Shown here piece after piece: positions 2,436-13,000 of a stretch of DNA of 64,000 nt. The stretch's first letter is position 1, and each line of letters opens with the position of its first letter. The translations under genes were made by a program, and so were the position numbers. Under the pieces are notes generated by a model. It worked only from the letters and a program-made list of their open reading frames with translations, did not search any database and was not told the DNA's origin. Source of the DNA: Candidatus Saccharibacteria bacterium UBA1944 (GTDB lineage: Bacteria > Patescibacteriota > Saccharimonadia > Saccharimonadales > Saccharimonadaceae); contig DDEW01000002.1 of NCBI GenBank assembly GCA_002336935.1, positions 8,910 through 72,909 of the forward strand, in the 5' to 3' direction.

Positions 2436-4064
2436 ATGGCGACACAGGGAAGGGTCCGATCGGCAGTTGCACGCGCCAATAGCAAGTTAAGTGTCCAGTG
2501 GGCCGCTATCTTGTTGGCAAGTTCAACGCTGATTGCTTCTTTGTTGGGTATTTACCGAGATAGGCTCCTCAACAGCTTGTACCTTGATAGCTATCCTGTA
2601 GGGATTGACGCGTATACAGTCGCCTTTACCATTCCTGACTTCATGTTCTTCATATTGGTGTCGGGCGCGCTCAGTGTTACATTTATTCCTGTTTTTAACC
2701 AGCGGCTTGCAGCTGGTAATCGTAAATCTGCTTGGGTGCTGAGTTCGAGCATGGTTAACTTCATGGCGCTAGTGACATTGGTGGCGAGCGTGTTGATTAT
2801 CATTTTTGCTGATCCGCTCGTTCGCTATATTGTTGGACCGGGGCTCGATGAGAGTGGCCGTGCACTGGCAATTAGCATGATGCGTATTATCGCGGTTAAC
2901 CCGTTCTTGTTTGCTGTGGCCACGGTAATCGCAAGCATGCAACAAGCGGTAGGCCGGTTTACGTTCTATGCACTTGCGCCGACAATTTATAACATCGGCA
3001 TCATTATTGGTGCGAAGTTCTTCACTAACGGTATCGATATTTTTGGCTGGCATGTGTTTGATGGGGGAATCATGGGCGTGGCGCTCGGCGTGGTACTGGG
3101 GTCTATGATGCAGCTGGTGGTCAGTTCTATTGGACTACTGGGCCTTGGTTTTGATTATCAAATGAAGATCACGTGGCGTAACAAGGGTTTCCGCCAAGTA
3201 TTACACCTACTGCCAGCTCGCTCGCTTGACCAGGGTATTGATTATTTCAATGGACTCGTCGAAACTAACCTTGCCTCGCACATGGCTGACGGTACCATTC
3301 GTGCTTACCAGCAAGCATCTGCATTGAGCTTGATGCCCGTTAATCTCATTGGTGTGGCCATTAGTAATGCCGCGTTTCCGCGTATGACCGAGCGGTTGAG
3401 CGAGGGCAAGGACGAATTATTCCGTAGCGAGTTGCGCACAGTGCTGCGCTGGATTGTGTGGCTTGCGCTGCCGATTGCTACCATTACCTACTTTACGCGG
3501 GGCTTTGTGGTGGCGTTCATTAAAAACGGCGGAAACGTACTGATTGCTGGTTTGCTTGGTGCATTAGTTGTGGCAATTTTGTTCCGCACGATTTATCACA
3601 TTGCTGCACGAATATTCTATGCCCAACAGGACACAAAAACACCCCTCTATATATCGATTTTTTCCATTGCGCTCAACATTTTCCTCGCCGTGACATTTAC
3701 CAATTCGTTTGGCTGGGGTGTGTATGGGCTGGCATGGGCACAGTCAATTGTCGCCTTTGTTGAGGTTGTCATTTTGTTCGTCATACTGCGCCTTCGCATC
3801 CCGCAATTGTTTACGGCAAGTTTTTGGCACGCGATTTTGCGCATGGTAGCAGCGAGCGCTCTCATGGCATTGGTGACCTATGCTACTGTGCAGCTTTTCC
3901 AGCTGCAAAGTAATGACATGAGTTTCCTGGCGACGTTTCCAAAGTTTGGCATTATCGTCGCAGTGAGCTTTGTGACGTATGTATGGTTGAGTCATATTCT
4001 TCGGCTAAGAGAAGCGACGCCTGTGATTACAAAGGCTCGTTCAATCCTGTTCGGGAGGAAATAG
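2436..4064 (+). CDS. murJ: Lipid II flippase MurJ/MviN
   Basis: Multi-TM protein with DAYTVAFTIPD, GALSVTFIPVF, LMPVNLIGVAISNAAFP and FYAQQDTKTP motifs. Confidence 0.9.
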   Translation: MATQGRVRSAVARANSKLSVQWAAILLASSTLIASLLGIYRDRLLNSLYLDSYPVGIDAYTVAFTIPDFMFFILVSGALSVTFIPVFNQRLAAGNRKSAWVLSSSMVNFMALVTLVASVLIIIFADPLVRYIVGPGLDESGRALAISMMRIIAVNPFLFAVATVIASMQQAVGRFTFYALAPTIYNIGIIIGAKFFTNGIDIFGWHVFDGGIMGVALGVVLGSMMQLVVSSIGLLGLGFDYQMKITWRNKGFRQVLHLLPARSLDQGIDYFNGLVETNLASHMADGTIRAYQQASALSLMPVNLIGVAISNAAFPRMTERLSEGKDELFRSELRTVLRWIVWLALPIATITYFTRGFVVAFIKNGGNVLIAGLLGALVVAILFRTIYHIAARIFYAQQDTKTPLYISIFSIALNIFLAVTFTNSFGWGVYGLAWAQSIVAFVEVVILFVILRLRIPQLFTASFWHAILRMVAASALMALVTYATVQLFQLQSNDMSFLATFPKFGIIVAVSFVTYVWLSHILRLREATPVITKARSILFGRK

Positions 4065-4066
4065 CC

Positions 4067-5845
4067 GTGAGTCAGTCGAACATCCGTAATTTCTGCATTA
4101 TTGCTCATATCGATCATGGCAAGAGTACGTTGGCTGATCGTATGATGGAAATTACCCATACGGTTGAAAAGCGCGATATGAAGTCGCAGCTACTTGATAG
4201 CATGGACTTGGAGCGTGAAAAGGGCATTACGATTAAGCTGGCACCAGTAAGAATGCACCATAAGGGTGTTGACCTTAACCTCATTGATACGCCTGGCCAT
4301 GTGGATTTTAGTTATGAAGTCAGTCGTAGCCTTGAAGCATGTGAGGGGGCGGTACTCGTTGTTGATGCCAGCCAAGGTATCCAGGCGCAAACACTCGCCA
4401 ATGTGTATCTAGCACTGGCAGCAGACCTAACGATTATTCCCGTGCTTAACAAAATTGATTTACCAGCAGCCGATGTGCCACGAGTGAGTGCAGAAATTAT
4501 TAACCTACTGGGTTGTGCTGAGCAAGATATTTTGAAAATTAGCGCAAAGACTGGCGAAGGTGTGGAGACAGTCCTCGATACAATTGTCGAACGTGTCGTG
4601 CCGCCAATGGGTGACGCCAATAGCCCAACTCGGGCGCTTATTTTTGATAGTTACTACGACGATTATCGCGGTGTGATTTTGTACACGCGAGTGGTTGACG
4701 GTGCAATTAAAAAAGGCGATACCATTGCAATGCTTGCGACTGGCGCGCATGGCTTGGCGCTCGAAGTGGGTGCACTCAGCCCTGCCATGAAGGAAGAGCC
4801 AGATATTGGTACGGGAGAAATCGGCTATATTGTGACAAACCTCAAAACCACGCGCGATGCCAAAGTGGGTGACACGGTAACGGTACGCCGTAGCCATAGT
4901 GATCAAGCGCTGCCAGGGTATCAAAACGTAAAGCCATTTGTGTATGCAGGGTTTTTCCCGGTGAGCAATGAAGATTACCAGGATCTCAAAGATGCAGTTG
5001 AAAAACTGAGCCTCAGTGACTCTGCCCTGCAGTTTGAGCCAGAGAACTCGCCGGTGCTGGGTTTTGGGGTGCGGATTGGCTTTTTGGGGTTGCTGCACAT
5101 GGATATCATTCGCGAACGGCTTGAGCGTGAATACGACTTAGATCTTGTGGTAACTAACCCGAGCACAGATTACCAGGTGTCACTGACAAGTGGCGAGGAA
5201 CTTGATATAAAAAGTGCGAGTGATTTACCAAATGTCGCAACGGTCAAAGAAATACGCGAGCCGTGGATTAAGGGCGAGATTGTGGTGCCGCAGGAATATA
5301 TTGGTGCAGTGATTCAACTCATTGTTGCTAAACGCGGTCGCCAGAGTAACTTGAGCTACATTGACGAGCGTGCGTTGATTAGTTTTGAGGCGCCGCTTGC
5401 AAACTTGTTAACGGATTTTTATGATCAACTCAAAAGCGTCACCAGCGGCTACGGCAGTTTCAACTACGAGCTTTCTGCCTATAGGGCAGAGGACTTGGTG
5501 CGCGTTGATTTTTATGTTGGCGGTGAGATGGTAGATGCGCTGAGTGTCATGTGCCATCGAAGTGAAAGTATGGCGCTGGGCCGTGACGTAACGAAGAAGC
5601 TTAAAGAAGTCGTGCCACGGCAAAGCTTCGAAGTAAGCTTACAGGCTGCAATTGGCGGTAAGTTTATTGCACGCGAAAACATTGGGGCATATCGCAAAGA
5701 CGTTACCGGCTATTTGTACGGCGGGGATGTTAGTCGCAAGAAAAAGTTGCTGGCAAAACAGGCGAAAGGCAAAAAGCGTATGAAGCGTTTTGGCAAAGTG
5801 GACATTCCCAGTGAGGCGTTTACTGTGATGCTCAAGCGTGATTAG
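4067..5845 (+). CDS. lepA: Elongation factor 4 (LepA)
   Basis: NIRNFCIIAHIDHGKSTLADR, LIDTPGHVDF, GFLGLLHM, C-terminal KKKLL.KQ..GKKRMK. Likely start is GTG 4067; the ORF-track extension overlaps murJ. Confidence 0.97.
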   Translation: MSQSNIRNFCIIAHIDHGKSTLADRMMEITHTVEKRDMKSQLLDSMDLEREKGITIKLAPVRMHHKGVDLNLIDTPGHVDFSYEVSRSLEACEGAVLVVDASQGIQAQTLANVYLALAADLTIIPVLNKIDLPAADVPRVSAEIINLLGCAEQDILKISAKTGEGVETVLDTIVERVVPPMGDANSPTRALIFDSYYDDYRGVILYTRVVDGAIKKGDTIAMLATGAHGLALEVGALSPAMKEEPDIGTGEIGYIVTNLKTTRDAKVGDTVTVRRSHSDQALPGYQNVKPFVYAGFFPVSNEDYQDLKDAVEKLSLSDSALQFEPENSPVLGFGVRIGFLGLLHMDIIRERLEREYDLDLVVTNPSTDYQVSLTSGEELDIKSASDLPNVATVKEIREPWIKGEIVVPQEYIGAVIQLIVAKRGRQSNLSYIDERALISFEAPLANLLTDFYDQLKSVTSGYGSFNYELSAYRAEDLVRVDFYVGGEMVDALSVMCHRSESMALGRDVTKKLKEVVPRQSFEVSLQAAIGGKFIARENIGAYRKDVTGYLYGGDVSRKKKLLAKQAKGKKRMKRFGKVDIPSEAFTVMLKRD

Positions 5846-5859
5846 CGTATAATCAATCT

Positions 5860-6597
5860 ATGGAAGTATCACTTACACATAAACAGGAATTTATCGATGC
5901 CCTTACTGGGTATCAACCTTCGGCCGAAGCGGTAGCGACGCTTGCACAAATGCCTCTTGTGATTTTGCTCAGCGTTACTGGTGGTGGACGCAACACGATT
6001 ATCAATGAACTCGTTGCAACGGGTCGCTATCATTTTATTGTGTCGGACACTACGCGCCCACCCAAGGTCCGCAATGGTGAACTTGAGCAGGATGGAGTTG
6101 TATACCACTTTAGGAGTGAGGAAGATGTCCTGCATGATATTCGTGAAGGAACCTACTTAGAAGCTGAACTGATTCACAATCAGCAGGTAAGCGGCACCAG
6201 TGTACGTGAGCTTGTGAAGGCGCATGACAGTGGCAAAATTCCTATTAATGAAGTCGACTTAGGCGGCACCGATGCAATTGCTGCAGTCAAGCCCGATACG
6301 GTGTTTTTGTTCGTTGTTCCACCCTCATTCGATGAATGGATGCGCAGGCTTCGCACCCGTGAGAACATGAGCGAAGACGAGTTGCGTAACCGCTTGCAAA
6401 CCGCGGTGCATATGCTTCGTAGGGTACTCGCCAGTGAGAGGTTCGTGTTTGTTATCAACGACGACTTAGCTGAAGTTGTCAGCACAGTTGACGATTATGT
6501 GCGGGGTGAGCATCACCATACGCACAACGACCAAGCACGCCAAGTGGCGCAAGTACTTCTTGACGATACGCTGCGCCATTATCCGGAACTTAGCTAA
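5860..6597 (+). CDS. gmk: Guanylate kinase-like protein (degenerate P-loop)
   Basis: VSDTTRPP...E.DGVVYHF, YLEAE..H...SGT and FVVPPSF.EWMRRL..R motifs. P-loop reads SVTGGGRNT. TATAAT lies 6 nt upstream of the ATG. Confidence 0.7.
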   Translation: MEVSLTHKQEFIDALTGYQPSAEAVATLAQMPLVILLSVTGGGRNTIINELVATGRYHFIVSDTTRPPKVRNGELEQDGVVYHFRSEEDVLHDIREGTYLEAELIHNQQVSGTSVRELVKAHDSGKIPINEVDLGGTDAIAAVKPDTVFLFVVPPSFDEWMRRLRTRENMSEDELRNRLQTAVHMLRRVLASERFVFVINDDLAEVVSTVDDYVRGEHHHTHNDQARQVAQVLLDDTLRHYPELS

Positions 6598-6842
6598 CGG
6601 CGCTTTGAATGCCGGTTACGGCCCTTGAAAAGAATAATAAGAGCAATAACAATCAGGACAATGCCCACTCCGACGCCAATGATCATATTGGTACCAGTGC
6701 TGGGTAATGCTCCCGAATCTGTAGACGTGCAGGCCTGCTGGGAATTATACGTTCCTGCACCATATGCGCTACAGTCGTAGTCTGCAGTGGCTCCAAACGT
6801 TGTTGAAACGCGCACAATAGGGGAGCTTGCATTTATAACCAT
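6594..6842 (-). CDS. Small LPXTG-type cell-wall sorting protein (82 aa)
   Basis: LPSTG (6693-6707), then a hydrophobic helix and a KGRNRHSKRR tail. Two Cys flank YGAGTY. A -10-like element lies immediately upstream. Confidence 0.6.
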   Translation of the reverse strand: MVINASSPIVRVSTTFGATADYDCSAYGAGTYNSQQACTSTDSGALPSTGTNMIIGVGVGIVLIVIALIILFKGRNRHSKRR

Positions 6843-6875
6843 TGCCAGTATAATAACCTTTAGAACTATAACGTA

Positions 6876-6899
6876 CAGGATACCCCGAAGTAGGACACT
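6876..6899. repeat. IS terminal inverted repeat (transposase 3' side)
   Basis: CAGGATACCCCGAAGTAGGACACT versus the reverse complement of 7927-7950, CAGGTCCCTTTGAAGTAGGACACT: 18/24 identical, inner 13 bp perfect. Confidence 0.85.
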
Positions 6900-7848
6900 A
6901 AGCCTGTATTGTTAAGTACTCTAAGTATACCTCATTTGCTGTTTTGTAGCCCAAGACTTGTCTTGGGCGTTCGTTTAGGTACGTTAGTACCGTAACGATC
7001 GTTTCTTTTGTGACCGTGCTAAGATCTGTCTTCTTCGGGATAAAGTGACGGATCCATTTGTTCGTGTTCTCAACCAGCCCCTTCTCCCAGCTATGGTAGG
7101 GATGGGTGAAATAGAACGGCGCACCCAGTAGTTGTTCGAAATACGTCCAGTACGTAAAGGCAATGTCGTTGTCAGTGAGGATAGTTTTGACGGCAACGCC
7201 GTCAAACATCTTCCGTAGAGCTCGCGAGAGCTCTTGTTTGGTTCGGTTGGGGAGTAGTTCTATGAGGGCTCGTTTGCTGAGTGTATCGACGGCCACGAGC
7301 AGCACAGTCTTGCTCCCATTCGTCCCGTCACGGTTCTTTGTCGGGCTGACGATGAAGTCGAGCTCCCAGTGGCCAATCTCATCACATAGGATACGCTCTT
7401 CAATCCACTTCCGTTCACCGATGAGCCCACGGCGATACATCGCTTTGCGTCGCTTTGGTTTGCCTCGAAAGTACAGCTTGTGCTGTAGTGCATAGATCGT
7501 GACGTAGCGATAGATAGTCCGTTTTGAAACAGGACAGTCACGGCTACCCGCAATCTCGCCCGGAGACCAACTCTTGTCGAGGCTGTCGTCGACATATTGG
7601 CGCAACGCTTTGTCGCGAGCAACTTTGTTACTAGACGTTCTCGCATAGTAGCGCTTCTGGTAAGCCTTGATGCTCGCTTTGCGAGCGACGTATTCGCCAG
7701 AAACCGCCAGGTGCTTCAGTTCATAGCTGATGGTATTGGGGCTGCGCCCCAACTCACCAGCTATGTAACGAATGCTTTTACCGTTCTTATGCCAATGCTC
7801 TATCTTAACTCGATCTTCATAGCTTAAGTGATCGTACTTCTGACCCAT
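6898..7848 (-). CDS. IS30-family DDE transposase
   Basis: N-terminal HTH HLSYEDR..IE......SIR.IA..LGRSPNTISYEL; catalytic region GHWELD, ILTDND..F, HPYHSWEKGLVENTN..IR.F.PK.TDL. Start may be 7848 or 7905. Confidence 0.92.
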   Translation of the reverse strand: MGQKYDHLSYEDRVKIEHWHKNGKSIRYIAGELGRSPNTISYELKHLAVSGEYVARKASIKAYQKRYYARTSSNKVARDKALRQYVDDSLDKSWSPGEIAGSRDCPVSKRTIYRYVTIYALQHKLYFRGKPKRRKAMYRRGLIGERKWIEERILCDEIGHWELDFIVSPTKNRDGTNGSKTVLLVAVDTLSKRALIELLPNRTKQELSRALRKMFDGVAVKTILTDNDIAFTYWTYFEQLLGAPFYFTHPYHSWEKGLVENTNKWIRHFIPKKTDLSTVTKETIVTVLTYLNERPRQVLGYKTANEVYLEYLTIQA

Positions 7849-7926
7849 AGCTACTATTGTAGATTTTGATCTGCTTGTTTTTCTAACTTTTCTATACCGT
7901 TTCATACATCCTCGCCTTTCTTGGCG

Positions 7927-7950
7927 AGTGTCCTACTTCAAAGGGACCTG
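7927..7950. repeat. IS terminal inverted repeat (transposase 5' side)
   Basis: AGTGTCCTACTTCAAAGGGACCTG, partner of 6876-6899. Confidence 0.85.
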
Positions 7951-7979
7951 GAGGTAAAAATCAAGGGAGAGCTACCGCT

Positions 7980-8159
7980 ATGCCGAACATCGGAGTACCA
8001 GAACTAATCGTTATTCTTGTCATTCTCCTCCTTCTTTTTGGAGCCAGGAAATTACCAGAACTTGCACGCAGCATTGGTTCTTCAGCCAAAGAGCTGAAAG
8101 GTGCAATGAAAGACGACGAGCCCGCAAGTGGCAAAAAGAGCGACAAAGACAAAGACTAG
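7980..8159 (+). CDS. tatA: Twin-arginine translocase subunit TatA (59 aa, below the ORF-track cutoff)
   Basis: Manual translation [59 protein letters not shown]: TM helix, FG hinge, KLPEL.RS.G amphipathic helix. SD-like AAGGGAG upstream. Confidence 0.92.
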
Positions 8160-9168
8160 TTTTAAGCATCGTGACGAGTCGGTTCTGCCAACTTTCTTGG
8201 ACCACGTCCACGAGTTGCAGGGCCGACTCTTTGCCATTTTGCTTGCCTTTCTTGTAGTAGGTGGTGCAGCCTATCCATTTTTTGATAAGATAGTAACCCT
8301 GATTGTCGCGCCGCTTGGTAACAGCCAGCAACTTGTGTACCTGACACCCGGTGGCGCCTTTAGCTTCATTATTAAGGTTTGTCTTTATGTAGGGGTCATC
8401 GGTGCATTACCGGTTATTATTTATCATTTATATCGGTTTTTAATGCCCGCAGTGAAAAAAGTACACTTGAGGACCGTATTGGCTTATATGCTTGCATCAT
8501 TTGTATTTGCCATTGCGGGCGTCGCATTTGCCTATGTTGTGAGCCTGCCAGCAGCGCTGCACTTTTTGACGAGCTTTGAGTTGTATCACATCAGCCCCAT
8601 GCTTACTATTGACTCCTATTTTTCTTTCGTTATGACGTATTTGCTAGCGGGGGCACTTCTGTTTCAGCTTCCCATTGTCATGCTTATTATTAACTCTGCA
8701 ACACCGTTGACGCCGAGTAAACTCATGGGTGCTCAAAAAGGAATCATTGTTGGATCATTCGTAGCTGCAGCTATTATTTCTCCTACACCAGACGCGCTCA
8801 ACCAGACACTTCTTGCTTCGCCGATTATCATTATGTATCAGCTGGGTATTGTGATTGTGTGGCTACGAAACCGTCGCTTGCAGCCAGAGAGGCAACGCGA
8901 GGCTGTCCCGCGGCACCAAGAATCAACTCACGACATGGTTTCTAGCCAGGTGGCGTTACTACCGGAGCGATCTGCAGCGGTACTGCTGGATCATAGGGTG
9001 CGTACGCTTGATGGGTTTACAGTACGGCAGCGCCAACATGGTGAGCCAGGGCATCCTAGAATGTCGCTTAGCGTACCTACTCGGCAAACAGCCCAGCCTT
9101 CCCTCGCTTCTGTGTCACATCGTCCGCGGCAGACCATCGATGGTTTTTTTGCCCCCGCTCGCTCGTAA
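8128..9168 (+). CDS. tatC: Twin-arginine translocase subunit TatC with long C-terminal tail
   Basis: [31 protein letters not shown] and [15 protein letters not shown] motifs; six TM segments; directly downstream of tatA. The GTG start overlaps tatA. Confidence 0.88.
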
Positions 9169-9172
9169 ATGC

Positions 9173-9201
9173 TTGTGCTTTTATATAGCTGAGTGTATAA
9201 T
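9173..9201 (+). promoter_or_regulatory. sigma70-type promoter for the 73-aa ORF
   Basis: TTGTGC-17 nt-TATAAT. Confidence 0.55.
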
Positions 9202-9234
9202 TGCTGGCATAAACCATATAAAAATCAAAAAAAT

Positions 9235-9456
9235 ATGAAAACACCACAGCATCTAACAGAGTTAATGAACAAGCGTATGGATCGCCAGGAGTTTTTGAAG
9301 CACCTTGCGGTTGGTACACTATTGGTATTCGGTGGCGGTGCTATTGCTAACGCACTTGGACTATCGCAGCGGTTAGGCATCGATGCGCCGGGTAATGGCG
9401 GCTCTGCACAATATGGTTATGGCGCCAGTGTCTACGGTGGCATAAAACGTTCATAG
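9235..9456 (+). CDS. Small protein (73 aa) consisting of a Tat-like signal/anchor and a Gly/Tyr tail
   Basis: MDRQEFLK followed by the hydrophobic HLAVGTLLVFGGGAIANAL and a C-terminal YGYGASVYGG; has its own promoter. Confidence 0.65.
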   Translation: MKTPQHLTELMNKRMDRQEFLKHLAVGTLLVFGGGAIANALGLSQRLGIDAPGNGGSAQYGYGASVYGGIKRS

Positions 9457-9475
9457 AATCCTACCATCGTAACAA

Positions 9476-9504
9476 TAGACACTACTACCCAAATAGGTTA
9501 TGCT
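9476..9504 (+). promoter_or_regulatory. sigma70-type promoter for the tail-fibre-like gene pair
   Basis: TAGACA-17 nt-TATGCT. Confidence 0.5.
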
Positions 9505-9538
9505 ATAGGTATATAGTTTAGTGGTATAGGGGATAATT

Positions 9539-10653
9539 ATGGCACGATTACCGCAACCGGGTGGTGACGCAGGAAACTGGGGCGAGATACTAAATGAGTA
9601 TTTGTCGCAAGTTCACAATACAGATGGTACCCTTAGCCGTCTATTATTCAGTCATCAAACCTAGCCACCGATGCAGTAAGCACCAATGCTCTTGCAAATA
9701 ACTCTGTGACAACGAGCGTACTTGCAGTAAGTGGGGGTACGGACGGCCAAGTTCTCACAAAAGACAGCCTGCAACCTGGGGGGCTGGCGTGGCAGTCGGT
9801 AAGCGTTACTGGGGGCGTATCGAGCGTTAATACCCGCACCGGTGTGGTGACGCTAACGGCATCAGATGTTGGCTTAGCAAATGTTAATAACACCGCAGAC
9901 ACCGATAAACCGGTGTCCTCCGCCGTTCAAACTGAGCTCAACAAAAAAATTGATACGACGGATAAGGGTGTCGCAAATGGTGTTGCTACCCTTGACTCGT
10001 CGGGCAAGGTGACCTCATCGCAGATGCCCGTGACGAGTCAGGTGAATAGCGATTGGGATGCAACAAGTGGTGTGGCGCAGATACTGAATAAGCCCACGAT
10101 TCCTGCACAGCTCAATGCAGCTGCAGGCGCCAACATGACAATCACTGGCACATATCCAAACCTTACGTTTGTCGCTGCTTCAAGCGCGACAGATCTTTCT
10201 TTCACGTCGACTGCTACGAACGCGACGATTGCTAGTAGTACTGGCGTTGATGCAACGATGACGGGTGCTTCTGCAACCAACGCGGGTGTAATGGTTGCGG
10301 CTGACAAAACAAAGCTAGATGGTGTTGCAGCCGGAGCTACTGCCAATGCGACCGACGCGCAGCTTCGTGATCGCGCTACGCATACTGGTACGCAGGCTAT
10401 CGCAACGGTTACTGGATTGCAAACCGCCCTTGACCTTAAGCTTGACTCCGCAAATGTAGACATTGACACTGGATTAGTTGCAAATAGTGATACCAAAGTT
10501 GCATCACAGAAGGCAACAAAAACATATGTAGATACGCATCTTGCTACAAAAGCCGATGCCACAATGGTAGGTGCTAAAGTTTTATTAATTGATAACGCCG
10601 CAGCACTTCCCGCGGGCACTCCGGCAGGCGTAGTCGTTGTTGTAAAGGTCTAG
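9539..10653 (+). pseudogene. MARLP-type phage-tail-fibre-like surface protein with an apparent 1-bp deletion near 9635
   Basis: ATG 9539 gives MARLPQPGGDAGNWGEILNEYLSQVHNTDGTL and stops at 9664. The -1 frame from 9637 continues PSIIQSSNLATDAVSTNALANNSVTTS into ORF 9706-10653. Tail-fibre-like motifs: SVNTRTGVVTL...DVGL.NVNNT.D.DKPVS, KGVANGVATLD, QVNSDW.A.SGVAQILNKP, DKTKLDG. Confidence 0.7.
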
Positions 10654-10657
10654 CCCT

Positions 10658-13000
10658 ATGGCCCAATTGCTATTTGGACCGGGAAACAGCGTTACGTTCG
10701 GGTCACTCAATGGGAGCGGCCTCGGCTCTTCAAAGAGTTTTGCCAAGACTTCTCTATCGAATATGGCAGTAGGCGACTTGCTCGTGATGTGGTTCGGCTC
10801 GCAAGATAACTCCACTACCAGTGTTATCACACCTCCGGCTGGCTGGACAAGATACGGCGCTCCTGAGGGTTCACCAAGCTATTCCACATCTCGTCGCTCG
10901 GGAATCTTCTATTACCCGCTTCGCACACAAGCTGACGTGGATAACTTTCCAGCCACATCAACCTGGACATTTGACGCCACGGCCGCAAATGCCCGCGGGG
11001 GATTTGTCGTTGCTCGAGCTGTAGGCATCGATCTCAATAATATTGAGGATAGTGCGGCAACGGCATTTAGTGGTGGTTCGAATGCAACCAGCTTGAGCGT
11101 TACGGGCATTACGACCCAGAATACCTACACGCTTCTGGTTGGTGGCGTTTATCAACACAACTCGGTGGGTATCACCGTACCAACCGCAACAAGTTTTATG
11201 ACCGGCTTTGACCAATATAACTCGACGGCAGTGGGGAGTACTGCCTATGCAAACACTGCCGCAATTATGGGGTATAAAGACCTCAGTGCGAGCGGTGCGA
11301 CAGGCAACCAAACGGCAACGTTCAACTCATTATGTACCGCGCTAGGTGGGGAGTTGGTAGCCTTTAAGGCACTCCCGCCCTCATCATATGTTCGTCCTAC
11401 AGTCATTGCAGGCAGCGTGCTCACGGCAACGGCATCAAGCGGCACGACATTTACTATAAATAAACCAACCGGTGCTGAAGATGGTGATCTATTAGTTGTG
11501 GCTATTTCTGCACAGTCTGCGACTTCTACGACGGACTTTACGTCAAGCGGATGGATGCGGGTTAGTGCCGATTACGTACCAACTAGCGCTACGTATCGCA
11601 TTACTGGTTTTTATGCTCTGCCTGTTCCGATTGCAGCTAACCTTACGTCAACGTCATTCACTTTTACTTCAACAGACCCAGCGGGTGGGCGTATTGCGGC
11701 ATCCATCTTTATTGTTCGACACGCCGATCTTACTCACATTACCGCTGGCAAGCCATCTATGGCGGGCACTGCTAGCTCGGCGACCATTACTCAAACCATG
11801 GGGACTCCAATGGCAAATATGTCGCTGCTCCTTAGTGTTTATAATGGCCAGTTCACAGTCGGTAACAGCTATGCTGTGTCTACGTCGCCTTCGGGCATGG
11901 CACTGGTTTCATCTACACATGTCGCAAGTGCAAATAGTACAGAAACGCCCAATGTGGTTTACTGCCAAGATGTTGAAGCAGTGAGCCAAGGAACACGGTC
12001 ATTAACGTGGGCGAGTGTTCCGGCTCAGACCAGCGTAGCATCGGTGTATATTCGCAACCTGAGCCAACCGGACGCGGTCACTGAGCCAACGGGTGCAATA
12101 ATCAAGTACACCTCGGCACCTGATACACTATCTGACGCAGTGGTCCGCTACACTTCCGCCGTCGATACACTGGCAATACCAAAAGAAGTCCGACCCTTTC
12201 CAACAGGGTACGCTTCGGTAACTGACATGCTTTCAAAAACCATGTTTTACTGTGCGCACCGTGGTGGTTCGCGAGAATGGCCAGAAATGAGCCTATATGC
12301 GTATACGCAAGCCGGCTTTTGGGGGGTTGGCGCGCTTGAGGTTTCTTTGGCGCGTACATCTGACGGCGTATGGTTTGGGCTGCACGACGCAGACATTAAT
12401 CGCACCTCCGGGACAACCGGTTTGCCCAATGCATCGGCAATGACATGGGCGCAGGTTCAGTCATATCAAATACTTGGCTCAACTGCTTTTAACAACCCAG
12501 CTCAGGCAAATCAGCCTTACATGCGCTGGGAAGAGATTGTTGCAACGTATTATTCCACCCACGTGCTGTTTGTGGACATTAAATACGCAGGTAGCTATAT
12601 CGCTGAGTTTATGACCATGATTAATGCCCTTCCCGGTAACCCCAAAGAGCGGATTGTTGGTAAATCCTACGGAGTTGGATCATCCTTCTCGGACACCATG
12701 CGTGCTGCAGGGTATAAAACTTGGGGCTATTACTATGAAACAGACTTCACGCCAACTAACAATATGGCAACCTACCAATCTCACTATGACATTTTAGGAA
12801 TGGACTACAACGCATCTCAGGCGACCTGGGATGCTGTACTAGCATTTGGTAAGCCGGTGATGGCTCACATTCTTCCGACAAGCGCCTCGTACACAACGGT
12901 GCAAACAAAGGTCAACGCAACCTCTCCCGGGGCAAATGCTGCCAACTGGAAAGGTTGCATGGTGTCTGGGGTAATGAGTGTGATACCACGAACACCGTAG
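10658..13000 (+). CDS. Ser/Thr-rich repeat-domain protein with C-terminal glycerophosphodiester phosphodiesterase (GDPD)-like domain
   Basis: Two homologous domains beginning GDLLV(M/V)...GW. C-terminal AHRGGS.EWPEMS..AY...ALEVSLARTSDGVWFGLHD..INRT. No obvious signal peptide. Confidence 0.7.
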   Translation: MAQLLFGPGNSVTFGSLNGSGLGSSKSFAKTSLSNMAVGDLLVMWFGSQDNSTTSVITPPAGWTRYGAPEGSPSYSTSRRSGIFYYPLRTQADVDNFPATSTWTFDATAANARGGFVVARAVGIDLNNIEDSAATAFSGGSNATSLSVTGITTQNTYTLLVGGVYQHNSVGITVPTATSFMTGFDQYNSTAVGSTAYANTAAIMGYKDLSASGATGNQTATFNSLCTALGGELVAFKALPPSSYVRPTVIAGSVLTATASSGTTFTINKPTGAEDGDLLVVAISAQSATSTTDFTSSGWMRVSADYVPTSATYRITGFYALPVPIAANLTSTSFTFTSTDPAGGRIAASIFIVRHADLTHITAGKPSMAGTASSATITQTMGTPMANMSLLLSVYNGQFTVGNSYAVSTSPSGMALVSSTHVASANSTETPNVVYCQDVEAVSQGTRSLTWASVPAQTSVASVYIRNLSQPDAVTEPTGAIIKYTSAPDTLSDAVVRYTSAVDTLAIPKEVRPFPTGYASVTDMLSKTMFYCAHRGGSREWPEMSLYAYTQAGFWGVGALEVSLARTSDGVWFGLHDADINRTSGTTGLPNASAMTWAQVQSYQILGSTAFNNPAQANQPYMRWEEIVATYYSTHVLFVDIKYAGSYIAEFMTMINALPGNPKERIVGKSYGVGSSFSDTMRAAGYKTWGYYYETDFTPTNNMATYQSHYDILGMDYNASQATWDAVLAFGKPVMAHILPTSASYTTVQTKVNATSPGANAANWKGCMVSGVMSVIPRTP

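What the first reader, a model, noticed from the sequence alone, without database searches (positions are those of the whole stretch)
10658..13000. Repeat-domain protein ending in a GDPD domain: possible host teichoic-acid-targeting enzyme
Two homologous Ser/Thr-rich domains, a duplicated linker (KYTSAPDTL/RYTSAVDTL) and a GDPD-like domain. Known: some phage baseplate or tail proteins carry GDPD domains that act on glycerophosphodiester cell-wall polymers, and Saccharibacteria are epibionts of Actinobacteria. The metal motif is altered (EVSL where ExD is usual), so it may bind rather than cleave. The style resembles actinobacteriophage minor tail proteins, hinting at acquisition from host phages.
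Basis: partly seen in the sequence, partly recalled or inferred. Interest (0 to 1): 0.65.

Follow-up and report, generated by a model that had tools for sequence, protein, structure and literature searches.

The report
Phage-type wall phosphodiesterase in a Saccharibacterium
A tiny parasitic bacterium from wastewater keeps, in its own chromosome and without any virus around it, a fibre gene plus a phosphodiester-cutting enzyme of the kind that phages of its actinobacterial hosts use to open the host cell wall. It probably uses the pair on that same wall.

Summary
ORF 10658-13000 (+) encodes 780 aa: two homologous Ser/Thr-rich beta-sandwich domains, a duplicated (K/R)YTSAxDTL neck and a complete GDPD TIM barrel, in which E561-V-S563 replaces the usual E-x-D.

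E-x-S, together with D640-x-K642 in place of E-x-K, is the invariant signature of a whole subfamily. Both catalytic His, the Arg and the Lys are conserved. The subfamily includes Actinomyces phage Xhp1 gp28 (ALEVSV), which a 2026 preprint reports as active on glycerophosphocholine and on host wall polysaccharide.

The subfamily turned up only in Saccharibacteria, Actinomycetota and actinophages. It always travels with an upstream phage-type fibre gene; a 71% GC phage contig carries the same pair.

In this genome the pair is an orphan. No capsid, terminase, portal or tape-measure genes were found. It lies in a 6.4-kb accessory island with tatA and tatC between gmk and hrcA. Ten of 401 Saccharimonadia species carry it, and all ten have TatC.

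Most likely it is a domesticated, catalytically competent depolymerase for glycerol-phosphate polymers of the host wall. Export route, substrate and activity are untested.

The scan has noted the same kind of pair before on other DNA (e1-2043756, e1-3017222). I rate it a new variant of a known kind.

The parts
10658..13000 (+). 780-aa phage-type GDPD protein (P0001); end coordinate includes the stop codon
   Evidence: ORF list and translation. PHROG 17803 'phosphodiesterase' E 6.4e-63. About 57 full-length homologues at 47-83% identity in Saccharibacteria. AF2 mean pLDDT 90.5.
10658..11395 (+). Beta-sandwich domain D1 (aa 1-246), Ser/Thr-rich, no signal peptide
   Evidence: AF2 models. Homologous to D2 (hhalign 98.3%, E 1.2e-14). 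No convincing PDB fold match. Weak match to the N-domain of the Clavibacter phage CN1A GDPD protein (80%).
11396..12091 (+). Beta-sandwich domain D2 (aa 247-478)
   Evidence: Matches the N-domain of Microbacterium phage RubyRalph gp32 (hhalign 96.5%, E 8e-10) and the N-terminal part of PHROG 13624 'hydrolase' (E 1.5e-6). Short forms of about 530 aa in other genomes carry only one such domain.
12092..12217 (+). Neck with the tandem (K/R)YTSAxDTL repeat (aa 483-491 and 497-505); short beta strands in the model
   Evidence: Read directly from the sequence. Nearly invariant in the family. Lower model confidence here, pLDDT 51-64.
12218..12997 (+). GDPD TIM-barrel domain (aa 521-780). Conserved positions: H534, R535, E543, E561, S563 (in place of Asp), H576, D577, D640 (in place of Glu), K642
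   Evidence: Pfam and NCBIfam hits. Foldseek to GlpQ 5T9B, phi812 central spike 9EUL and phage K gp155 9F5M. Profile alignment to GlpQ-type structures places each residue. Invariant columns.
9539..10653 (+). Partner gene: phage-type fibre. It has a MARLPxPGxDxGxWGxILNxYL N-terminus, a tail-fibre repeat body and a conserved C-terminus ...VLLIDNAAALPAGTPAGVVVVVKV. In this strain a 1-nt deletion (AA to A at 9634-9635) splits it into a 41-aa ORF plus a 315-aa ORF (9706-10653)
   Evidence: PHROG minor tail and tail fibre hits. An intact 371-aa allele exists in JGI 3300027924; the deletion is present in two other independent assemblies. A fibre+GDPD pair is present in every Saccharibacterial locus read.
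7980..9456 (+). Context: tatA (7980-8159), tatC (8128-9168) and a 73-87-aa TatB_1-like mini-protein (9193/9235-9456), immediately upstream in the same accessory island
   Evidence: Pfam TatC E 1.5e-49, NF038009 E 2e-15; TatA_B_E called on L046. Same order tatC / mini-protein / fibres / GDPD / hrcA in genome G277 of another genus.
6594..13000 (.). Accessory island inserted between the gmk-like gene (5860-6597) and hrcA (13021-). It contains an LPSTG micro-ORF, an IS30-type transposase (6898-7905, minus strand), tatA, tatC, the mini-protein, the fibre and the GDPD gene
   Evidence: Same-genus genome G364 has gmk-like and hrcA adjacent. ORFs. The IS30-type gene is missing from the otherwise identical JGI contig L047.

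Best explanation
**What it is.** The gene encodes a domesticated phage-type depolymerase. Two tandem beta-sandwich domains, probably for binding a surface polymer or docking to the fibre, carry a catalytically competent glycerophosphodiester phosphodiesterase barrel on a short neck. It is made together with a phage-type fibre from the gene just upstream.

**Where the unit comes from.** Phages of Actinomycetota use the same two-gene unit on the virion. There it cleaves glycerol-phosphate-containing wall polymers and helps adsorption.

**What it does here.** The Saccharibacterium keeps the unit with no other phage genes. Most likely it exports or exposes the unit and uses it on the wall of its actinobacterial host. 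That could uncover binding sites, thin the wall locally at the contact zone, or release glycerol-3-phosphate.

**Shown:** domain anatomy, conserved catalytic residues, homology to the phage pair, orphan status, accessory distribution, purifying selection.

**Inferred:** activity (by analogy with Xhp1 gp28), substrate, extracellular location, and a Tat-linked export route.
For: **Fold and active site.**
- Full TIM barrel, closest to the teichoicase GlpQ and to virion GDPDs of phages phi812 and K.
- H534, R535, E543, E561, H576, D640 and K642 are invariant or nearly so.
- The E-x-S / D-x-K signature is subfamily-wide.
- Xhp1 gp28 shares it (30% identity, E 3e-22). That protein is reported to hydrolyse GPC and wall polysaccharide, to sit on the baseplate and to be needed for adsorption and plaques.

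**Phage origin of the pair.**
- PHROG 17803 and 67-79 actinophage records.
- RubyRalph gp31/gp32 show the same fibre C-terminus pattern.
- The 71% GC phage-like contig L141 carries a fibre ending ...VLLIDDVGSLPAGTPAGTVVVVKA followed by a GDPD protein starting VAQLHFGAGDS.
- The tree interleaves Saccharibacterial, actinobacterial and phage sequences.

**Kept for a cellular function.**
- No capsid, terminase, portal or tape-measure hits in a 97.7%-complete genome.
- More than 50 intact full-length homologues.
- dN 0.12 with saturated synonymous sites against an 83%-identical homologue.
- Same chromosomal slot in a different genus at 37% identity.
- G+C is like the rest of the genome.

**Extracellular action is plausible.**
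- Stand-alone actinobacterial members carry Tat or lipoprotein signals.
- All 10 Saccharimonadia species with the module have TatC, against 110 of 391 without it.
- In four clades the only TatC-positive genome sampled is the GDPD-positive one.
- Here tatA and tatC are in the same island.

**Not aimed at its own wall, not housekeeping.**
- No TagF-type glycerophosphotransferase in the genome.
- A canonical GDPD exists elsewhere in the genome.

**A rationale from the literature.** A preprint shows that host wall polysaccharides block a Saccharibacterial pilus adhesin from reaching peptidoglycan (10.64898/2026.10.06.756255).
Against: - Neither the GDPD protein nor the fibre has any signal peptide, Tat motif or membrane anchor, so export is unexplained.
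- The GDPD gene is next to tatC in only 2 of 10 genomes.
- Tat co-occurrence could simply reflect less reduced genomes.
- The module is rare: 10 of 401 species, and 0 of 13 other species of the genus. It is therefore dispensable for the epibiotic lifestyle.
- In this very strain the fibre partner is frameshifted.
- No enzymatic, expression or localisation data exist for any Saccharibacterial member.
- The activity of the Ser variant rests on one preprint about a 30%-identical protein.
Confidence: 0.5

Rival explanations
1. Inert leftover of a phage that once integrated in, or injected DNA into, the Saccharibacterium. The pair is decaying cargo with no role for the cell.
For: The fibre partner is frameshifted in this strain and in two other assemblies. 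An IS30-type transposase sits in the island. Distribution is patchy. A GDPD-bearing host phage, Xhp1, binds TM7x and infects it to a limited extent, which gives a route for phage DNA to enter (PMC13578794).
Against: The GDPD ORF is intact in more than 50 diverged homologues of constant length. dN is 0.12 with saturated dS. Catalytic residues are invariant. The chromosomal slot is conserved across genera. G+C is ameliorated to genome level. No other phage genes are left.
Confidence: 0.12
2. The enzyme acts on the Saccharibacterium's own envelope. It would remodel or strip a phosphodiester-linked surface polymer, for example to destroy receptors for phages that adsorb to the epibiont, or for wall turnover.
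For: Phage Xhp1 binds TM7x through surface features that are TM7x's own. Receptor-destroying enzymes are a known exclusion strategy (general knowledge). Stand-alone exported homologues in Actinomycetota presumably act on the producer's own wall.
Against: No TagF/TagB-type CDP-glycerol glycerophosphotransferase was found in the genome, so a poly(glycerol-phosphate) polymer of its own is not evident. The fibre partner and the tandem binding domains suit reaching out to another surface.
Confidence: 0.15
3. Nutrient harvesting. The enzyme mainly releases glycerol-3-phosphate or phosphate from host glycerophosphodiesters, lysolipids or teichoic acid to feed a cell that cannot make its own lipids. 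Attachment is secondary.
For: There are weak NCBIfam and PDB similarities to lysophosphatidylglycerol phospholipase D and lysoplasmalogenase. GlpQ is a phosphate-starvation teichoicase (general knowledge; 5T9B is the best fold match). GDPD_Xhp1 alters lipid metabolism in the host.
Against: A canonical small GDPD already covers metabolism. The obligatory fibre partner and the phage-adsorption ancestry point to a surface-contact role. The two roles do not exclude each other.
Confidence: 0.15
4. One reading: the Asp-to-Ser change has inactivated the metal site, and the barrel serves only as a lectin-like binder of phosphodiester polymers.
For: The canonical E-x-D / E-x-K triad is changed at two of three positions. 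One Microbacterium phage homologue, Rasputia, has also lost the second catalytic His (GLGD), so inactive members may exist.
Against: Both His, the Arg, the Glu of PE(M/N) and the Lys are invariant over Saccharibacteria, Actinomycetota and phages. Asp640 can still ligate a metal. Xhp1 gp28, with the same ALEVS and IDHK motifs, is reported to be catalytically active.
Confidence: 0.08

Closest known systems
GDPD_Xhp1 (gp28, 293 aa) of Actinomyces/Schaalia phage Xhp1, with its upstream gene gp27
   Same: Same E-x-S / D-x-K subfamily (ALEVSV, IDHK), 30% identity, E 3e-22. The gene overlaps the end of an upstream repeat-rich, fibre-like gene. It belongs to the same biological triangle of Saccharibacterium, actinobacterial host and host phage. 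It is reported as a baseplate enzyme active on GPC and on wall polysaccharide.
   Different: Xhp1 gp28 is a bare barrel inside a complete temperate phage, placed after the lysis genes and beside the integrase. The window protein has two extra beta-sandwich domains and a neck, and lies in a cellular chromosome without phage genes. Similarity of gp27 to the window's D domains was not detectable.
Actinophage 'phosphoesterase' proteins of PHROG 17803 with their upstream partner, e.g. Microbacterium phage RubyRalph gp31/gp32, vB_MoxS-R1 gp46/gp45, Clavibacter phage CN1A gp51
   Same: Architecture of beta-sandwich, neck and GDPD; 27-32% identity over aa ~260-775. The D2 domain matches. A partner gene lies directly upstream with a similar C-terminal motif. 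Catalytic signature LE(F/I/V)S.
   Different: The phage proteins have one N-terminal domain, not two, and sit among virion or late genes. The window gene is chromosomal, duplicated in its N-domain and Tat-linked.
Stand-alone exported GDPDs of Actinomycetota (Leifsonia, Frigoribacterium, Cellulomonas, Nakamurella, Streptomyces; 275-320 aa)
   Same: Same subfamily at 37-50% identity, with the same invariant residues including Ser.
   Different: They carry twin-arginine or lipoprotein signals and have no N-terminal beta-sandwich domains or fibre partner. Their function is untested.
GlpQ teichoicases of Bacillus subtilis and Staphylococcus aureus (PDB 5T9B, 2OOG)
   Same: Best solved-structure match of the barrel (TM 0.76). 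Conserved His/Arg/His/Lys. They degrade glycerol-phosphate wall polymers (general knowledge).
   Different: About 15% identity. GlpQ has the canonical Ca2+ triad E-x-D / E-x-K and is a Sec-secreted single domain.
Virion GDPD domains of phages of Firmicutes: Lactobacillus phage Ld17 baseplate, Staphylococcus phi812 central spike (9EUL/9EUF), phage K gp155 (9F5M)
   Same: A GDPD barrel mounted on a tail structure to cut teichoic acid at adsorption. Fold matches E 2e-10 to 1.5e-9. Ld17 activity as cited.
   Different: Different subfamily (12-16% identity) and different carrier domains. All are parts of real virions.

Membership tests
GDPD / PLC-like phosphodiesterase superfamily (Pfam PF03009) | Score above Pfam's gathering threshold | tested here: met
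   37.3 bits against 23.6, though only profile positions 1-70 are matched.
GDPD / PLC-like phosphodiesterase superfamily (Pfam PF03009) | (beta/alpha)8 barrel fold over the whole domain | tested here: met
   AF2 pLDDT above 90 for aa 520-780. Foldseek probability 1.00 and TM 0.70-0.78 to more than 40 solved GDPDs.
GDPD / PLC-like phosphodiesterase superfamily (Pfam PF03009) | Catalytic His (HRG), Arg, second His (HD) and Lys | tested here: met
   H534, R535, H576, D577 and K642 are invariant or nearly so, and align with the GlpQ residues.
Canonical GlpQ/UgpQ-type GDPD | Metal triad Glu-x-Asp plus Glu-x-Lys | tested here: not met
   E561-x-S563 and D640-x-K642. The genome's other GDPD has ELD and ELK.
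Canonical GlpQ/UgpQ-type GDPD | Single-domain enzyme, cytoplasmic or Sec-secreted | tested here: not met
   780 aa with two extra domains and no signal peptide.
Actinophage/actinobacterial E-x-S GDPD subfamily (PHROG 17803 and relatives) | Motifs AHRGGSxxxPEMS, ALExS, DGVWFGLHD, VDxK, GYxTWGYFY | tested here: met
   All are present in the window protein. These are the patterns that retrieved 108 relatives. PHROG 17803 E 6.4e-63.
Actinophage/actinobacterial E-x-S GDPD subfamily (PHROG 17803 and relatives) | Phosphodiesterase activity | not testable with these tools
   Reported only for Xhp1 gp28, in a preprint.
Virion-associated (tail/baseplate) GDPD enzymes | Encoded in a phage genome and incorporated into the virion | tested here: not met
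   No capsid, terminase, portal or tape-measure families in the genome. The flanks are tatC and hrcA.
Virion-associated (tail/baseplate) GDPD enzymes | Coupled to a tail-fibre-type partner or carrier | tested here: met
   The upstream fibre gene is 4 nt away and is conserved as a pair in all loci read.
Tat-exported proteins | N-terminal twin-arginine signal peptide on the protein itself | tested here: not met
   The N-termini MAQLLFGPGNSV... and MARLPQPGGD... have no RR motif or hydrophobic core. There is only genomic linkage and co-occurrence with TatC.

The most novel reading that the evidence does not exclude
The tatA / tatC / mini-protein / fibre / GDPD island is a cell-borne version of a phage adsorption device. 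The folded, signal-less fibre-enzyme complex would be carried across the membrane by the Tat system, piggy-backing on the small Tat-signal protein encoded next to tatC. It would then be displayed on the epibiont, where it recognises and opens the phosphodiester-linked wall polymers of the actinobacterial host. Different cargo enzymes, such as the GH5 glycosidase found at the same slot in a sister species, would set host range.
Probability: 0.25. Interest if true: 0.8.

Novelty: new variant of a known kind. Interest (0 to 1): 0.6.

Why it matters
**The open question.** How ultrasmall epibiotic bacteria recognise and breach the thick walls of their hosts is not known. So far only type IV pili and their adhesins have been implicated.

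**What this would add.** An epibiont would have borrowed the wall-opening tool of its host's own phages. That gives a concrete candidate determinant of host range. It also links three recent observations:
- A host prophage GDPD shapes TM7x episymbiosis.
- That phage also binds TM7x.
- Host wall polysaccharides mask adhesin targets.

**A defined enzyme class.** The work also defines a GDPD subfamily (E-x-S / D-x-K) shared by Actinomycetota, their phages and Saccharibacteria. Its metal chemistry and substrates are unstudied.

**Testability.** All of this can be tested with recombinant protein and purified wall polymers.

Tried and rejected
- **Solved-structure match for the N-terminal domains.** A separate AF2 model (pLDDT 84) gave only low-probability hits (reelin repeats, TM 0.1-0.15). 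The fold stays unassigned beyond 'beta-sandwich shared with actinophage minor tail proteins and hydrolases'.
- **Xhp1 gp27 as carrier of the same beta-sandwich.** BLASTP and hhalign were not significant. Dropped.
- **Programmed frameshift in the fibre gene.** Rejected: a -1 slip runs into TAG, and an intact allele with one extra A exists.
- **Whole prophage nearby or elsewhere.** Not found.
- **Further copies of the MARLP fibre or of the GDPD module in the genome.** None.
- **Promoter and terminator scan.** Uninformative; counts equal those in shuffled sequence.
- **Direction of transfer.** The quick tree has many unresolved forks and long branches. I claim several exchanges, not a donor.
- **Same-genus DNA search.** Too insensitive to prove that the GDPD gene is missing. 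Only the protein search (0 of 13) and the four loci read directly are used.
Full report
**1. The observation**

The ORF is real: 10658-13000 on the + strand, 780 aa. It starts 4 nt after the stop of the upstream gene, with an AAGG motif at the right distance.

An AlphaFold2 model built on 67 homologues is confident (mean pLDDT 90.5). It shows four parts:
- two all-beta domains, aa 1-246 and 247-478;
- a short beta neck, aa 479-520;
- a (beta/alpha)8 barrel, aa 521-780.

The two beta domains are homologous. BLASTP alone is marginal (E 2e-4), but profile against profile gives 98.3% probability, E 1.2e-14 over 213 columns. Their Ser+Thr content is 25-30%.

The neck holds the tandem KYTSAPDTL (483-491) and RYTSAVDTL (497-505), which is conserved in the family.

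Pfam recognises only the first third of the GDPD profile. The fold search nevertheless matches the whole barrel to more than 40 solved GDPDs. The best are B. subtilis GlpQ (5T9B, TM 0.76), the staphylococcal phage phi812 central spike and phage K gp155.

EVSL (561-564) does align with the E-L-D of canonical enzymes.

**2. The active site**

I aligned a profile of 33 domain sequences to GlpQ-type structures. This places H534-R535 on the HRG motif, E543 on the Glu of PEN/PEH, E561 on the first metal Glu, H576-D577 on HD, and D640-x-K642 on the E-x-K motif.

Two of the three canonical metal ligands are therefore changed: Asp to Ser563, and Glu to Asp640. All general acid/base and phosphate-binding residues are kept and invariant.

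The change is not a local decay. ALE(V/I/L/M/F)S and VDxK occur in every member I read:
- Saccharibacteria;
- 25 Actinomycetota;
- Microbacterium, Clavibacter, Streptomyces and Actinomyces phages.

One of these is gp28 of Actinomyces phage Xhp1 (ALEVSV, IDHK; 30% identity, E 3e-22). A preprint of October 2026 reports the following about it (10.64898/2026.10.08.757619):
- The recombinant protein releases glycerol-3-phosphate from glycerophosphocholine and from a wall-polysaccharide fraction of Schaalia odontolytica.
- It sits on the baseplate.
- It is needed for normal adsorption and for plaques.

That makes 'binder only' unlikely, although it rests on one unreviewed study of a distant relative. 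The same genome also has an ordinary 242-aa GDPD with ELD and ELK. The 780-aa protein is therefore not the housekeeping enzyme.

**3. Relatives and origin**

The protein matches PHROG 17803 'phosphodiesterase' (E 6.4e-63). It also matches 67-79 phage records, nearly all from phages of Actinomycetota.

A pattern scan of 185,579 species genomes found this subfamily only in Saccharibacteria/Patescibacteria and Actinomycetota. There are two actinobacterial forms:
- phage-type multi-domain proteins, for example in Microbacterium oxydans, almost identical to phage vB_MoxS-R1 gp45;
- stand-alone 275-320-aa enzymes with clear twin-arginine or lipoprotein signals, in Leifsonia, Frigoribacterium, Cellulomonas, Nakamurella and Streptomyces.

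In a quick maximum-likelihood tree of 67 barrels, the Saccharibacterial sequences are not one clade. At least four changes of label are forced by well-supported branches.
- Two Saccharibacterial sequences sit with Microbacterium phages (support 96).
- One sits with Cellulomonas (support 92).
- The deepest branches are Streptomyces and Actinomyces phage proteins.

Many forks are unresolved, so I conclude repeated exchange, not a direction.

A 40-kb, 71% GC contig with a tail protein and an endolysin carries a fibre ending ...GAKVLLIDDVGSLPAGTPAGTVVVVKA, directly followed by a GDPD protein starting VAQLHFGAGDSATFG. These are the same termini as the window's pair (...GAKVLLIDNAAALPAGTPAGVVVVVKV / MAQLLFGPGNSVTFG).

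A physical route for such exchange exists. The GDPD-bearing host phage Xhp1 binds the Saccharibacterium TM7x and infects it to a limited extent (PMC13578794).

**4. A two-gene unit**

In every Saccharibacterial locus I read, a fibre-like gene lies directly upstream of the GDPD gene, 0-6 nt away or overlapping. These fibre genes share three features:
- Many start MARLPxPGxDxGxWGxILNxYL.
- Their bodies carry collagen-like or 'phage tail repeat' units.
- They end in a conserved ~25-residue motif.

The MARLP N-terminus also heads collagen-repeat proteins of Streptomyces phages. RubyRalph gp31/gp32 and Xhp1 gp27/gp28 are arranged the same way.

In this strain the fibre gene carries a 1-nt deletion (AA to A at 9634-9635). 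It splits off the first 32 residues. Two other independent assemblies have the same deletion, and a JGI contig has the intact 371-aa allele in front of an identical GDPD gene. This is a real and recent polymorphism, not a programmed shift.

**5. Genomic setting**

The genome is 0.95 Mb and 97.7% complete. It has one copy of each gene of the pair. It has no hits to phage capsid, terminase, portal or tape-measure families.

The order in the window is: murJ, lepA, gmk-like, [LPSTG micro-ORF, IS30-type transposase, tatA, tatC, TatB_1-like mini-protein, fibre, GDPD], hrcA, grpE, dnaK.

Comparison with relatives:

| Genome | Relation | What lies at the slot |
|---|---|---|
| G364 | same genus | gmk-like directly next to hrcA; the bracketed 6.4 kb is therefore an accessory island |
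| G417 | same genus | tatC, then a 156-aa MARLP protein, then a GH5 glycosidase, in nearly the same place |
| G277 | another genus | tatC, mini-protein, two MPRLP fibres, GDPD (37% identical), hrcA, grpE |

Elsewhere the pair sits in unrelated housekeeping contexts, for example between rpsG and fusA.

**6. Distribution and selection**

Ten of 401 sampled Saccharimonadia species carry the module. None of 13 other species of the same genus does. Metagenomes hold more than 50 intact full-length homologues at about 50% identity.

Against an 83%-identical homologue, dN is 0.12 while synonymous sites are saturated. The barrel is the most conserved part, with 67% mean pairwise identity against 55-56% for the beta domains.

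These figures fit a functional accessory gene.

**7. Export**

Neither protein has a signal, as expected for former virion parts. Three observations point to Tat, none of them decisive:
- The stand-alone actinobacterial members are Tat or lipoprotein substrates.
- TatC occurs in 120 of 401 Saccharimonadia species but in 10 of 10 with the module (Fisher 4.4e-6, not corrected for relatedness).
- In genera g1, g13 and g16 and in family f14, the only TatC-positive genome sampled is the GDPD-positive one. In this genus tatA and tatC arrive in the same island.

The small TatB_1-like protein tracks TatC almost perfectly (108 of 401). I could not test that.

Against a Tat route, the module is adjacent to tatC in only two of ten genomes.

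**8. Target**

The genome has no TagF-type glycerophosphotransferase, so a poly(glycerol-phosphate) polymer of its own is not evident.

Actinomycetota commonly have polyol-phosphate or sugar-phosphate wall polymers (general knowledge; also stated). A preprint shows that host wall polysaccharides block a Saccharibacterial pilus adhesin from peptidoglycan.

I therefore favour the host wall as target (about 0.5). Action on its own envelope, pure nutrient harvesting, and inert remnant are the rivals.

**9. Novelty**

Virion GDPDs and GlpQ teichoicases are known. I found no paper describing a Saccharibacterium-encoded fibre+GDPD pair.

The scan itself has noted the same kind of pair on other DNA (e1-2043756, e1-3017222).

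New in this report:
- the subfamily-wide Ser signature tied to an enzyme reported as active;
- the exported actinobacterial members;
- the island structure;
- the TatC co-occurrence;
- the fibre alleles.

Verdict: a new variant of a known kind, with moderate to high interest.

Noticed in passing
window 9539-9706 (deletion at 9634-9635): The fibre partner gene is split by a 1-nt deletion in the window and in two other assemblies. An intact 371-aa allele exists in a JGI wastewater metagenome, in front of a 100%-identical GDPD gene.
   Followed up: yes
window 6898-7905 (- strand): A 335-aa IS30-type transposase (HTH_38 + rve on the matching contig L046) lies between the LPSTG micro-ORF and tatA. 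It is absent from the otherwise collinear JGI contig L047, so it is a recent insertion.
   Followed up: partly
L036 (G417, same genus) 3532-5128, - strand: At almost the same slot downstream of tatC, a sister species carries a 156-aa MARLP-headed fibre stub followed by a GH5 (cellulase family) enzyme instead of the GDPD protein. This suggests swappable fibre+enzyme cargo.
   Followed up: partly
window 9193-9456 and genomes G298, G198, G379: The TatB_1-like mini-protein (NF038009, below its cut-off) occurs in 108 of 401 Saccharimonadia species and tracks TatC (120 of 401). In a few genomes the same N-terminal signal-like segment heads proteins of 360-860 aa, which are possible true Tat substrates.
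   Followed up: partly
L078-L129 (Actinomycetota genomes): Stand-alone 275-320-aa members of the same E-x-S GDPD subfamily carry Tat or lipoprotein signals. They are widespread in Leifsonia, Frigoribacterium, Frondihabitans and others. This looks like an uncharacterised exported enzyme family.
   Followed up: partly
L136 (Microbacterium phage Rasputia gp61): This phage homologue reads GLGD where all others have GLHD, so it lacks the second catalytic His. It may be an inactive, binding-only member.
   Followed up: no
G000 contig C3:21082-21732 (L142): A second, canonical 242-aa GDPD (HRG, ENT, ELD, HD, ELK) in the same genome, presumably the metabolic enzyme.
   Followed up: partly
L002 (JGI 3300053108) 6458-10277: In one Saccharibacterial genome the fibre+GDPD pair, together with a NUDIX gene and a 191-aa ORF, is inserted between rpsG and fusA of the str operon. 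This is an unusual place for accessory genes.
   Followed up: no
P0069 / P0071 (Saccharibacteria, 1150-1234 aa); G026 and G223: Giant variants with three or four copies of the beta-sandwich domain alternating with PKD domains before a more divergent GDPD barrel (KAIEISA). They also have no signal peptide.
   Followed up: no
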